Virus genome (UHGV): UHGV-0067703
DNA: 21,971 bases
From: a virus
Strand: one strand, 5' to 3'
The position numbers are program-made. Shown here piece by piece: positions 1 to 3,000 of the stretch. The stretch's first letter is position 1. Every line of letters starts with the position of its first letter.

Positions 1-3000
1 CGGAGGAAAACGTGCTCTCAACAGTGCGCGAGAAGCTGGAAGCGCCCTATCAGGGGCGGACGCTGCTGCTGATTGACAGCGTCGATATGCCGCCGGAAGC
101 GGACGAGGGGCTGCGCGAGATTGAGCATTGGGGCTGCGATGTGCTGGTGACGACGCGCTTCCCGCTGGGCGAGGAATTCCGGAATATCGCCGTGCCGCTG
201 CTGTCGGAGGAAGCCAGCCGGGCGCTGTTTGTCCAGCACGACCCGTACTTGAAAAGCATGGGCAGCGCGGAAACGGAGGCGCTGCATCAGGTGCTTTCGC
301 GCGTGGCGGGGCATCCGCTGGCGATTATCCTGCTGGCGCATCTGGCGAAGATGAAGCGCTGGACGATGCATCAGCTGCTGGAAGAGCTTGACCGCATCAG
401 CCCGGAGGGACTGCGGCTGGCGGGCGGCAAATTCAGCGCGATTGCGCAGAGAATCGCCCAGATGGTGTCCTCCGACGCGCTGACCGACCGCGAAAGGCAG
501 GTGCTGGCGGTTTTCGCCACGTTTCCGGCGTGGACAATCCCGGTGCGGGACGCGCTGACCCTCCTGCGCGACTTCGGCACGGAGGATGAACTGCTGTCCG
601 CGCTGGAAACGGCGGCGGATTACGGCCTGCTGACATCGAACTGGCGCGGATACGCCATGCACCCCGTGCTGGCGGAGAGCTTCCGGCCGCTGCTGCCGCC
701 GATGGAGAAGGTGCCGAGGCTGGCGGAGATTTTCCGGGAACGCGCAACGCAGTCCGGTTCGCTGGAAGATTGCAAGGGCACGACGCTGGCACTTGCCCTT
801 CATGCGGTGTCGGATTTCTTCGATGCGCCGGTTGAACTGATGTCAGGCATTTCGATTGGCGTGGTGGAACTGCTGGACACGTCGCGGGAGGAAATTCCGG
901 CGGCGCGTCTGGCAATCTGGCGGCAGTACAAGCAAAAAGAGTCCCAGCAGACAGCGAAGGGACGCTTCCTTGATGCAGAAATGCAGCTGGTACTCGATGC
1001 CATTCAGGGTGGCGAATTGCAGGCGGATGCAGAACAGATTATTGCCCAGCTGCCGGGGGCATCCGACAAAAATGCAATGGACTTCCTGACCATCAATACG
1101 ATTATTGTGCAGCGCGTGAATCGGGAACTTTGCGTTCGGATTATCGAACAGGCGGATCAGCTGATTCAGCCGGATAGCCCGCAGTATGCGGTATACCGTG
1201 CGGAATCTGTCTGCGCCAAGCAGCTTGTGGGCGTGTCCGTGCCGGAGGAAGAGGTTAATCAGGCAATTTCGTACTTCAAAGAACAGATGAAGAATCCGAA
1301 AAAGCTTCATGATGCCGCAGGGCGCTTGGGAGCGCTGCTCAGCACCACGATGCTGAGCGGATGGTGGGGAAAAATTAAGCCGTTTGCGGATGAACTGGCG
1401 CAGATTGTGGATGAAAAACATATCCGCAACACGGAATCTGACCATGCGTTGGGCATGATTTACCGCCATTTGCAGGAATTTGACAAAGCCCTCATGTACG
1501 AAAAGTATGTGGTTGATGCTATTCAGCCGGAGACGCTGCAATATTATCAAGTGATGGCGAACTACCTTGTTATCAAGCAGGAAAGTGGACGCTGCTTGGA
1601 AAACAAGGAAATACTGGAGGAAGAACTGCCGAAAATCGCGGAGAAATTCGGCAAGAACAACGGACTGTATGCCATTTGGGCGCATTCCTACTCGAAGGTG
1701 CTGATGGAACTGCGCCGCCCGGAAGAAGCAATGCGGCTACTGGACGAAATTTACCCGATTGTTGTGACACACATGGGCGAATGGAACGCAAAGGTGGTGC
1801 AAATTGCGTACATTTCCTGCTTGGCGATGACGAATCGAGACGACGAGGCACAGGCAAAGGCTGCGGAATTGCGCGAATATTTTGTGAACGCGGCTGGGAA
1901 AGAATCGCCGCAGGTATATGCCATCGACCAGACGGTGCAGAAGGTCAACGACGGTTTCTTCCACAAGGAGAATCAGTCCAAACAGGTATAATCCGGGAAA
2001 AACACGCGGATATTGACAACCTGCAATGTAACCTGCTTGACAATCCCCATTGTCGCCGTATAATGGAAAGTGGAATCCTGCATTCGGATAACCATTTTCT
2101 ATTATACGGCATTTTTTGCTGTTGGACGCAAAAGAAAGGAAATGCACATGACGCTCAAGGAGTTTTATGCCGCAGTCGGCGGCGATTACGACGCAACCCT
2201 GAACAGAATCCCCAAGGAGTCGATGGTGCTGCGCTTTGTGAAGAAGTATGCCGACGACAAAACCTACGCCCAGCTGACCGAAGCGGTGAAAGCGCAGGAC
2301 TGGGAAACGGCGTTCCGCGCGTCGCACACGCTCAAGGGCGTGGCGCAGAACCTCGGCTTTGACGGGCTGTACCGCGCCGCGTTCGCGCTGACGGAAGAAA
2401 TGCGCGGTAAATTGCTGGATATTTCCCGCACATCGGAAAAGTCTTCCCGCTTTGGTTTCAACGTTAATCTTTAATTAACCCCATCCCCGACCACATATCG
2501 GGGATTAAATTAAATATCTGGATTAATTAACCGGAGGATTTGTCATGCTCAAACCTCACTACGGAACCGCATTAGTTTCTCGCGAGGACGTTAAACCCGG
2601 CACAGCAATTCTTTACAACGGGCGTTATTACATGGCGTCAGCGAACGTTAATAATGCACTTTACGCTCATTCACTGATTGAAAAAATTCGCATTATCTCA
2701 GATGCAATAGAAATTTACCTGAACAATAAAGGCCAACCGTTAATCTCACCAGCCTGAAAGGAAATATCATGCTCAATCAAAAAATAAATATCAATGTAAA
2801 AAGCGTCGTAACTCCAGCAGGAACGATAATGGGAGAAGTTTTTATGGATGATAAAATCATCGCCTATTTTGTCGTCCTGTCTGATGAGGCTATTTCTGTT
2901 ATTGATACGGAAGGCAATGTTATGTTTATCGCAGAACATCCAGAAGACATCGCATTACAGGCCGCTGCATATTTCTTCGCTAAGGAGCAGGAGGAAGAAT

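What the first reader, a model, noticed from the sequence alone, without database searches (positions are those of the whole stretch)
2370..2480. Sharp composition and homology junction inside an ORF (possible chimera)
Left of ~2388 the DNA is GC-rich with G/C-dominated third codon positions and a Firmicutes-style consensus promoter. From 2388 onward it is AT-richer enterobacterial phage DNA. The 18-mer ctgacggaagaaatgcgc (2388..2405) is identical to 12580..12597, and the following 70 nt plus hairpin parallel 12598..12697. The Hpt-domain ORF therefore ends in a phage-derived tail, which suggests an assembly chimera, an engineered join, or a recombination scar rather than a native gene.
Basis: seen in the sequence. 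Interest (0 to 1): 0.55.

Follow-up and report, generated by a model that had tools for sequence, protein, structure and literature searches.

The report
Faecalibacterium–E. coli assembly chimera junction
The sharp junction is real in the sequence, but it is almost certainly a metagenome-assembly error that glued a piece of a gut Faecalibacterium genome onto an E. coli prophage across a 20-base chance similarity, so it is not a native gene or a biological event.

Summary
The window is one whole SPAdes-named metagenome contig (ENA ERZ1314586, NODE_1064, about 10x coverage). Bases 1-2407 are Faecalibacterium DNA, 99.4% identical and ungapped to a native 45-kb contig. That match stops exactly at 2407. 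Bases 2388-21971 are E. coli DNA: a lambdoid prophage at 99.8-100% identity, tRNA-Arg, and a P4-like satellite. The parents overlap only at 2388-2407: an exact 18-mer, then a Faecalibacterium-specific G at 2406, then a shared G.

The match to 12580-12597 is not a separate signal. It is paralogy between two E. coli antirepressor genes, and the junction sits at the end of that roughly 130-nt intra-prophage repeat.

The natural Hpt gene encodes 114-116 aa and occurs on at least 1000 contigs. The chimeric 108-aa protein occurs on this contig alone. The junction sequence is absent from IMG/VR and JGI metagenomes, and the left flank matches no E. coli genome, plasmid or phage.

Best explanation: an inter-species assembler misjoin (about 0.8). 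A library chimera (about 0.1) and a real recombination (about 0.05) cannot be formally excluded without reads. Interest is low. The practical point is that the contig should be split at about 2407.

The parts
1..1991 (+). 3' two-thirds of a Faecalibacterium STAND-like NTPase/TPR gene (native protein 972-997 aa), cut by the contig end
   Evidence: 100% aa identity over 662 aa to P0135/P0136. The DNA is part of the 99.4% ungapped match of window 1-2407 to native contig L008. It is 97.8% identical to Faecalibacterium sp. CAG:74 over 1-734. There is a faint AAA_16 hit on the full-length protein and a weak TPR_12 hit.
2037..2064 (+). Consensus sigma-70/SigA-type promoter-like site upstream of the Hpt gene (native Faecalibacterium intergenic DNA)
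   Evidence: TTGACA-16-TATAAT, 12/12. It lies inside the block 2025-2407, which is 96-97% identical to L002/L003/L005.
2148..2407 (+). 5' part (codons 1-87) of the Faecalibacterium Hpt-domain gene. The native gene has 114-116 codons.
   Evidence: Translation. 100% identity over 81% of the query to P0001-P0004. The Pfam Hpt match covers residues 41-86 and stops at profile position 60 of 84. Native DNA identity ends exactly at 2407.
2388..2407 (+). Junction overlap shared by both parents: 18 nt exact (2388-2405), then 2406 = G (Faecalibacterium base; C in the aligned E. coli sequences), then 2407 = G in both. The crossover lies between 2406 and 2408.
   Evidence: Four-way alignment. Flank listing. 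All 147 E. coli genomes with this segment reach at best 62/63 identity.
2408..2474 (+). 3' tail (last 21 codons plus stop) of an E. coli lambdoid-prophage Rha-family regulator gene, fused in frame to the Hpt fragment
   Evidence: Identical to L001 3021-3087, the end of the annotated Rha family CDS 2314-3087. The full E. coli protein carries Phage_pRha.
2483..2505 (+). Hairpin downstream of the Rha-gene stop (8-bp stem, 7-nt loop). It is part of the E. coli prophage.
   Evidence: MFE -12.4 kcal/mol, z = -3.1. Identical in E. coli L001. There is no T-run, so the terminator scan does not call it.
2545..16056 (+). E. coli lambdoid prophage early-left region through integrase to tRNA-Arg: kilR, gamL, recT, exo, yfdP/yfdQ-like, DUF551, Bro-N, HigA/RelE module, two ORF6N antirepressors, and int at 14619-15863 (-)
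   Evidence: 99.8% identity over 2388-16056 to E. coli JNEC-KY177 in one piece. Phage hits at 99.7%. Gene and Pfam list.
12471..12601 (+). Second copy of the intra-prophage repeat, in the 3' part of the ORF6N antirepressor gene 11869-12666. Its partner in E. coli would occupy window-equivalent 2279-2409, of which only 2388-2409 is present in the window.
   Evidence: Ungapped comparison: 131 nt with 4 mismatches, exact runs of 56 and 46 nt, the last ending at window-equivalent 2409. Protein tails ...AFKHLTEEMRR... are shared.
15984..16056 (+). tRNA-Arg (CCT), argW: the attachment-site tRNA between the lambdoid prophage and the P4-like element
   Evidence: ARAGORN. Annotated tRNA-Arg in both E. 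coli references.
16057..21971 (+). E. coli P4-like satellite prophage (integrase 16182-17516, HTH, Icd-like, DUF5375, start of TOPRIM-DUF927 primase)
   Evidence: 100% identity over 16000-21971 to E. coli PRO_A-1407-6W-A_ESBL. Annotation.

Best explanation
The junction at 2406-2408 is a computational misjoin, an inter-species translocation misassembly, in a short-read de Bruijn-graph metagenome assembly. DNA from a gut Faecalibacterium strain and from an E. coli strain in the same sample was joined where the two genomes happen to share 18 identical bases (19 of 20).

Both parental paths had reason to break at this spot:
- On the E. coli side, the spot is the last about 22 nt of a roughly 130-nt near-identical repeat shared by two antirepressor genes of the same prophage. 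That is a branch point in the assembly graph.
- On the Faecalibacterium side, it lies immediately before a strain-variable G-run (G5 vs G8, a one-codon indel) at about 10x coverage.

An overlap-tolerant step then connected the two ends. This could be small-k contigs carried forward, or gap closing or overlap joining that accepts a mismatch. The 108-aa 'Hpt' ORF with a phage tail is therefore not a gene of any organism.

Shown: the two parents, the exact overlap, the repeat boundary, the G-run polymorphism, and the uniqueness of the junction. Inferred: which algorithmic step made the join.
For: (1) The window is the whole contig ena:ERZ1314586:NODE_1064_length_21971_cov_10.13, which uses the SPAdes naming style. 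L004 equals window 1-12474.

(2) The left flank is 99.4% identical, ungapped, to a native Faecalibacterium-type contig up to exactly 2407. That contig continues into the rest of Hpt, an SBP_bac_3 gene and a hybrid histidine kinase. The species anchor is Faecalibacterium sp. CAG:74 at 97.4-97.8%.

(3) The right flank from 2388 is 99.8-100% identical to E. coli prophage and chromosome.

(4) The overlap is an 18-nt exact match, then a mismatch resolved to the Faecalibacterium base, then one shared base.

(5) About 440 chance 18-mer matches are expected between a 3-Mb and a 5-Mb genome, so such microhomology is plentiful.

(6) The junction coincides with the distal end of an intra-prophage repeat, whose last exact run ends at window-equivalent 2409. 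It also sits next to a length-polymorphic G-run: RGGKP, RGGGKP and RGGAP variants, G5 vs G8.

(7) The chimeric protein is on 1 contig among about 15 billion proteins, while the native 115-aa protein is on at least 1000 contigs. Junction 38-48-mers are absent from IMG/VR and JGI metagenomes.

(8) The left flank has no match in 5,426 E. coli genomes, 72,556 plasmids or 50,697 phages.

(9) Both genes are truncated without functional logic. Hpt loses profile positions 61-84, and Rha loses its whole N-terminal DNA-binding domain.

(10) Inter-species translocations are the most frequent misassembly class in CAMI benchmarks (metaMIC preprint 10.1101/2021.06.22.449514). The metaSPAdes authors warn of intergenomic errors at low coverage (PMC5411777).
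Against: - No reads are available, so spanning coverage and pair consistency were not examined.
- An exact overlap of 18 nt is shorter than the smallest usual k (21). A plain de Bruijn path cannot explain the join, and a mismatch-tolerant step must be assumed. My recollection that SPAdes' gap closer accepts overlaps of 10 nt or more with a few mismatches is from memory and was not verified here.
- The look-up reports 'samples_with_this_contig 3'. If those were three independent assemblies it would argue for a real molecule. One search counts only one contig, which suggests the same assembly product deposited under several records. I could not verify this.
Confidence: 0.8

Rival explanations
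1. In-vitro chimeric molecule. During library PCR or whole-genome amplification, an incompletely extended Faecalibacterium strand ending ...ATGCGCGG annealed to the E. coli template through the 19/20 match and was extended. The assembler then faithfully followed the chimeric reads at low coverage. This is still an artefact.
For: The crossover lies at the 3' end of the microhomology, with the mismatched base retained from the left parent. That is what primer-like extension would give. Contig coverage is low at about 10x, so a few chimeric reads could decide a path.
Against: A random template switch has no reason to coincide with the boundary of an E. coli intra-prophage repeat, whereas a graph-based misjoin does. 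A proofreading polymerase would tend to remove the mismatch one base in from the 3' end. Chimeric reads are normally outvoted by native reads of both parents.
Confidence: 0.1
2. Real in-vivo illegitimate, microhomology-mediated recombination. An E. coli strain's lambdoid prophage acquired at least 2.4 kb of Faecalibacterium DNA, replacing everything upstream of codon about 190 of its Rha gene. The phage's own RecT/exonuclease, encoded 1 kb away, might have assisted.
For: A microhomology junction is also the signature of illegitimate recombination. RecT and a lambda-exonuclease-family gene lie at 3369-5014. The two organisms share a habitat.
Against: - The junction and the chimeric protein are seen in one contig only.
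- No E. coli genome, plasmid or phage carries any of the left flank.
- The Faecalibacterium part is 99.4% identical to native DNA with unameliorated composition.
- The event would delete the prophage immunity region and produce two dead gene fragments.
- The contig never returns to E. coli DNA on the left.
- The coincidence with an assembly-graph branch point is unexplained.
Confidence: 0.05
3. An E. coli-like lambdoid prophage resident in a Faecalibacterium chromosome. This is the reading a host-prediction pipeline would make from the contig.
For: Only the physical adjacency in the contig.
Against: The 'prophage' side includes E. coli's own argW tRNA and a P4-like satellite at 100% identity to E. 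coli chromosomes. So 19.6 kb of E. coli chromosome, not just a phage, would have to sit in Faecalibacterium. The join is inside two ORFs, not at an att site. The native Faecalibacterium locus is uninterrupted in every other contig examined.
Confidence: 0.01
4. Engineered join (cloning or recombineering construct).
For: None beyond the in-frame fusion. That fusion follows automatically from the shared 18-mer, which encodes LTEEMR in the same frame in both genes.
Against: There is no vector, marker, restriction site, linker or designed 35-50-nt homology arm. Both partners are arbitrary internal gene fragments. The left flank has no plasmid match. The sample is a metagenome assembly.
Confidence: 0.01

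Closest known systems
Inter-species (inter-genomic) translocation misassembly in short-read metagenome assemblies, as defined in MetaQUAST/CAMI-style benchmarks and discussed for metaSPAdes
   Same: A single contig whose two flanks map at 99% identity or more to genomes of different phyla. The breakpoint is at a short shared sequence, coverage is low, the community is strain-rich, and the junction is unique to one assembly.
   Different: The shared sequence is only 18 nt exact (19/20). This is shorter than the 'interspecies repeats' (conserved genes, IS elements, rRNA) that usually cause such errors, so a mismatch-tolerant joining step must be invoked. Read-level confirmation is missing.
PCR/MDA template-switch chimeras
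   Same: A junction at short microhomology between unrelated templates.
   Different: MDA chimeras are typically inverted. Here both parts are colinear and in frame, and the site coincides with a graph branch point.
Microhomology-mediated illegitimate recombination / natural gene capture by lambdoid phages ('morons', mosaic joints)
   Same: A sharp mosaic boundary within a lambdoid early-left region, with short homology at the joint.
   Different: Known lambdoid mosaic joints link phage or enterobacterial modules and recur across genomes. This joint links to DNA identical to that of an obligate-anaerobe Firmicute, truncates both genes and occurs once.
Native Faecalibacterium Hpt phosphotransfer protein (PF01627), encoded upstream of an SBP_bac_3 protein and a hybrid HisKA-HATPase-Response_reg kinase
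   Same: Residues 1-87 are identical. The promoter and upstream gene are identical in arrangement.
   Different: The native C-terminal 27-29 residues (the last helix of the four-helix bundle) are replaced by 21 residues of an E. coli phage protein. The native downstream partners are absent.

Membership tests
Inter-species translocation misassembly (chimeric contig) | The two sides of the breakpoint belong to genomes of different species | tested here: met
   1-2407 is 99.4% identical to a Faecalibacterium-type contig and 97-98% to F. sp. CAG:74. 2388-21971 is 99.8-100% identical to E. coli. The left flank is absent from all E. coli genomes. The tetranucleotide profile switches.
Inter-species translocation misassembly (chimeric contig) | Both parental sequences exist uninterrupted elsewhere, and the junction is not reproduced in independent data | tested here: met
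   Native Hpt locus in L002, L003, L005, L008 and L009. Native Rha gene in 147 E. coli genomes. Chimeric protein on 1 contig only. Junction absent from IMG/VR and JGI contigs.
Inter-species translocation misassembly (chimeric contig) | Breakpoint at a sequence shared by the two genomes and/or at a graph branch point | tested here: met
   18 nt exact, 19/20 overlap. The overlap lies at the end of the intra-prophage repeat and next to a strain-variable G-run.
Inter-species translocation misassembly (chimeric contig) | No concordant read or read-pair support across the breakpoint; coverage discontinuity | not testable with these tools
Only the mean k-mer coverage of 10.1 is known.
Hpt domain protein (Pfam PF01627) | Pfam match above the gathering score | tested here: met
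   36.9 bits against a cut-off of 24.6, residues 41-86.
Hpt domain protein (Pfam PF01627) | Complete domain (four-helix bundle, profile covered to its end) | tested here: not met
   The match ends at profile position 60 of 84, at the junction. The native proteins carry 27-29 further residues, which are replaced here.
Phage Rha-family / antirepressor regulator | N-terminal Phage_pRha (or ORF6N) domain | tested here: not met
   Only the last 21 codons (up to 28 counting the shared overlap) are in the window. The E. coli full-length copy has Phage_pRha at residues 22-107.
Genuine horizontal transfer / recombination scar | Junction present in a replicating genome (isolate, long read or independent samples) | tested here: not met
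   No occurrence in 5,426 complete E. coli genomes, PLSDB, INPHARED, IMG/VR or JGI metagenomes. GTDB representatives gave only the native Faecalibacterium locus. Absence from these collections is not proof of absence in the sample.

The most novel reading that the evidence does not exclude
The junction is a real molecule. An E. coli lambdoid prophage in the sampled gut recently captured at least 2.4 kb of Faecalibacterium chromosomal DNA by recombination over 18-20 nt of microhomology, possibly catalysed by its own RecT/Exo system. That would be a directly observed, days-to-years-old Firmicute-to-Proteobacteria DNA transfer into a phage genome.
Probability: 0.04. Interest if true: 0.6.

Novelty: not a real feature. 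Interest (0 to 1): 0.07.

Why it matters
Biologically it most likely does not matter: no organism carries this gene.

Practically it is a clean, well-resolved example of a cross-phylum chimeric contig in a public assembly. If left unsplit it would cause four errors:
- It would assign an E. coli lambdoid phage and a P4-like satellite to a Faecalibacterium host.
- It would create a false inter-phylum HGT call.
- It would contaminate any MAG that contains the contig.
- It would seed protein databases with a fictitious Hpt-phage fusion. The 108-aa protein is already in the protein collection searched here, as a member of the native Hpt cluster.

The case also shows that joins can occur over overlaps shorter than the smallest k. 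This is useful for people tuning misassembly detectors.

If the 4% reading were true, it would be a rare direct snapshot of recent inter-phylum DNA capture by a temperate phage.

Tried and rejected
- I asked whether some E. coli prophage variant carries G at 2406, which would make a 20-mer exact overlap fitting k=21. None of the 147 complete genomes with this segment does; the best is 62/63. A plain k=21 path is therefore rejected.
- I looked for the junction elsewhere. The 48-mer is absent from IMG/VR. The 38-mer with S at 2406 is absent from JGI metagenome contigs. The exact-protein look-up finds only this contig.
- I looked for the left flank in E. coli genomes, plasmids and phages with sensitive blastn and found no match.
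- I suspected that the 659-aa truncated homologues (P0159, P0163) came from further chimeric contigs starting at the same place. They do not. L009 is a native locus with the large ORF split by an in-frame stop, and L010 is a short MEGAHIT contig with a fold-back end.
- I considered that the GC-rich right end (19-22 kb) was a return to Firmicute DNA, which would make the E. coli segment an insertion. This is rejected: it is E. coli P4-like DNA at 100% identity.
- I considered BayesHammer-type k-mer correction as the cause. By my own inspection of the flank listing, no pair of parental 21-mers across the overlap is within Hamming distance 1, so I did not pursue it.
- I could not resolve what 'samples_with_this_contig 3' means.
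Full report
**What the window is.** An exact-protein look-up of the ORF at 2148-2474 returns a single record: ena:ERZ1314586:NODE_1064_length_21971_cov_10.133647. Its first 12,474 bases equal the window. The window is therefore one complete contig of a metagenome assembly. The SPAdes naming style and the typical k values are my own knowledge. Mean k-mer coverage is about 10.

**Checking the observation.** The composition step is real.
- GC is 56.7% for 1-2387 (63-67% over the first 900 bases) against 46.2% for 2388-16056.
- GC3 is 0.84 in the Hpt portion, 0.48 in the 2388-2474 tail and 0.36-0.56 in the following ORFs.
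- Tetranucleotide frequencies of 1-2387 correlate at r = 0.88-0.89 with native Faecalibacterium DNA flanking the same locus, but only at 0.31-0.47 with the E. coli segments. The segment 2408-16056 behaves the opposite way.
- A perfect TTGACA-16-TATAAT lies at 2037-2064.
- The 18-mer CTGACGGAAGAAATGCGC occurs at 2388 and at 12580.
- Both copies are followed by diverged but parallel coding tails and a hairpin.

**The right side.**
- Bases 2388-16056 match E. coli strain JNEC-KY177 in a single piece at 99.8%. The first 5.6 kb is 100.0% identical to that strain and 99.7% identical to Escherichia phage PhiR12_3.
- The genes are the early-left region of a lambdoid prophage: kilR, gamL, recT, exo, and so on to an integrase at 14619-15863.
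- tRNA-Arg(CCT) lies at 15984-16056.
- Bases 16000-21971 are 100% identical to E. coli chromosomes carrying a P4-like satellite next to argW. The GC-rich right end is therefore also E. coli, not a return to the left-hand organism.
- Every top E. coli hit starts at exactly 2388.
- In E. coli, 2388-2474 is the 3' end of an annotated Rha-family regulator gene, L001 2314-3087.

**The left side.**
- Bases 1-2387 have no match in 5,426 complete E. coli genomes, PLSDB plasmids or INPHARED phages, even with sensitive blastn.
- The first 87 residues of the ORF are 100% identical to many metagenomic Hpt-domain proteins of 114-116 aa. These continue ...ALTEEMRGG(G)KPLTDTALY...VRQLA.
- The upstream 662-residue partial ORF is 100% identical to full-length proteins of 953-972 aa.
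- The contig carrying one of these (L008, 45 kb) matches window 1-2407 at 99.4% without gaps and stops matching at exactly 2407. It then continues with the rest of Hpt, an SBP_bac_3 protein and a hybrid histidine kinase.
- The same native order is seen in L002, L003 and L009.
- The GTDB scan names the organism: Faecalibacterium sp. CAG:74 is 97.4-97.8% identical in DNA over 1-734 and 2025-2407.

**Anatomy of the junction.**
- Faecalibacterium: ...GTTCGCG CTGACGGAAGAAATGCGC GG GGGCAAACC...
- Window: ...GTTCGCG CTGACGGAAGAAATGCGC GG TAAATTGCTGG...
- E. coli: ...CAAACAT CTGACGGAAGAAATGCGC CG TAAATTGCTGG...

The parents share 18 exact bases at 2388-2405. They differ at 2406, where the window has the Faecalibacterium G, and share G at 2407. 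None of the 147 E. coli genomes holding this segment matches perfectly; the best is 62/63. The mismatch at 2406 is read from the aligned copy and the window paralogue.

Because the 18-mer encodes LTEEMR in the same frame in both genes, the fusion is automatically in frame. The in-frame fusion is not evidence of selection or design.

**Why 2388 resembles 12580.** In E. coli the Rha gene's 3' part is a near-copy of the 3' part of the ORF6N antirepressor gene at window 11869-12666. The repeat is 131 nt with 4 mismatches and has exact runs of 56 and 46 nt. The last run ends at window-equivalent 2409, after which the two copies diverge (proteins). The window retains only the last 22 nt of the left copy. 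The internal repeat is thus ordinary paralogy within the prophage. The chimeric junction sits at the distal boundary of that repeat.

**Is the microhomology remarkable?** It is not. For a 3-Mb and a 5-Mb genome, about 440 exact 18-mer coincidences are expected by chance, and about 1,700 20-mers with at most one mismatch.

**Most likely mechanism.** I conclude an inter-species misjoin made during assembly.
- Shown: two parents at 99.4% identity or more, and a 19/20 overlap.
- Shown: the E. coli side lies at the end of an intragenomic repeat, where a de Bruijn graph branches and contigs end.
- Shown: the Faecalibacterium side lies directly before a G-run that differs in length between strains. 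It is G5 in L005, L008 and L009 and G8 in L002 and L003, giving RGGKP, RGGGKP and RGGAP protein variants. At about 10x coverage in a strain mixture, this is another likely break.
- Shown: the chimeric protein is a singleton among about 15 billion proteins, while the native form sits on at least 1000 contigs.
- Shown: the junction is absent from IMG/VR and JGI metagenomes.
- Inferred: the joining step itself. Because the exact overlap (18 nt) is below k = 21, a mismatch-tolerant operation is needed. Candidates are gap closing between dead ends, overlap joining in scaffolding, or a chimeric read. My memory that SPAdes' gap closer accepts overlaps of 10 nt or more with a few mismatches was not verified.
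- Literature: inter-species translocations are the most frequent misassembly type in CAMI sets (10.1101/2021.06.22.449514). The metaSPAdes paper states that interspecies repeats with low coverage may trigger intergenomic errors (PMC5411777).

**Rival explanations.**
- A library (PCR/MDA) chimera would give the same sequence. It does not explain the coincidence with the repeat boundary.
- A real recombination placing Faecalibacterium DNA in an E. coli prophage cannot be excluded without reads. It has no independent occurrence, destroys both genes and the prophage's immunity side, and shows completely unameliorated donor DNA.
- A 'Faecalibacterium prophage' reading is contradicted by the E. coli argW tRNA and the satellite downstream.
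- An engineered join has no supporting feature.
- One loose end remains. The look-up tool says 'samples_with_this_contig 3', whereas the cluster table counts one contig. I read this as the same assembly product deposited in several records, but I could not verify it.

**Comparison with known things and verdict.** The ORF matches Pfam Hpt above threshold, but only to profile position 60 of 84. It is a truncated Hpt fragment plus 21 codons of a phage Rha-family gene, so it is a complete member of neither family. The feature belongs to the known class 'chimeric contig / inter-species translocation misassembly'. Three of four defining features were met, and the fourth (read support) is untestable here.

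The contig should be split at about 2407. Interest is low. The only novel reading left open is genuine recent capture of Faecalibacterium DNA by an E. coli phage, to which I give about 4%.

Noticed in passing
window 15980-16056 (tRNA-Arg CCT, argW), with int genes at 14619-15863 (-) and 16182-17516 (+): The lambdoid prophage and a P4-like satellite are joined only through the 77-nt argW segment. E. coli identity of the prophage side ends at 16056 and that of the satellite side begins at 15980. None of 5,426 complete E. coli genomes has the two contiguous: the best place covers 62% of the window. In JNEC-KY177 the other side of argW holds intS/KpLE1-type DNA. This is either a natural tandem occupancy of argW or a second join through a short repeat, possibly between two E. 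coli strains.
   Followed up: partly
window 735-2024 (inside the large ORF 3-1991): The Faecalibacterium STAND-like (faint AAA_16, weak TPR) gene is mosaic between strains. Bases 1-734 and 2025-2407 are 96-98% identical to L002 and L005. Bases 735-2024 have no detectable DNA similarity to them (74% aa overall to F. sp. CAG:74). GC drops from 63-67% to 47-54% in this stretch. Other contigs (L008, L009) carry the window's allele at 99%. It looks like a swappable C-terminal cassette.
   Followed up: partly
window 11047-12666 and E. coli L001 2314-3087: Three antirepressor-type genes of one prophage have different N-terminal domains: Phage_pRha, ORF6N, and ORF6N+P22_AR_C. The Rha and the 11869-12666 ORF6N gene share a nearly identical C-terminal module (...PSPTMRILNELHSKGYNVDAAVAEFNAFKHLTEEMRR...) followed by similar hairpins. 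This suggests domain shuffling among antirepressors.
   Followed up: partly
window 9730-10730 (-): A three-gene cassette lies inside the prophage: a RelE/ParE-family toxin (10359-10730), an HTH protein (10046-10366) and a HigA-family antitoxin (9730-10035). It is annotated the same way in E. coli JNEC-KY177.
   Followed up: no
L010 1-101 (ena:ERZ27306924:k141_25010) and L009 1419-1441, both corresponding to about 11 nt upstream of window position 1: In other assemblies the same Faecalibacterium ORF is disturbed within about 11 nt of where this contig begins. A MEGAHIT contig has a fold-back (inverted duplication of window 1-79) centred there. In L009 the ORF is split by a TAG stop into 330-aa and 659-aa parts. 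This may be a locally difficult or strain-variable spot that breaks assemblies.
   Followed up: partly
E. coli L001 2314-3087 (NZ_AP045173.1): In the closest E. coli reference, the Rha-family gene whose tail appears in the window is itself annotated as a pseudogene with an internal stop.
   Followed up: no
protein collection, cluster of P0005: The fictitious 108-aa Hpt-phage fusion protein is already stored in the large public protein collection, as a member of the native Hpt cluster. This shows how such chimeras propagate into databases.
   Followed up: no
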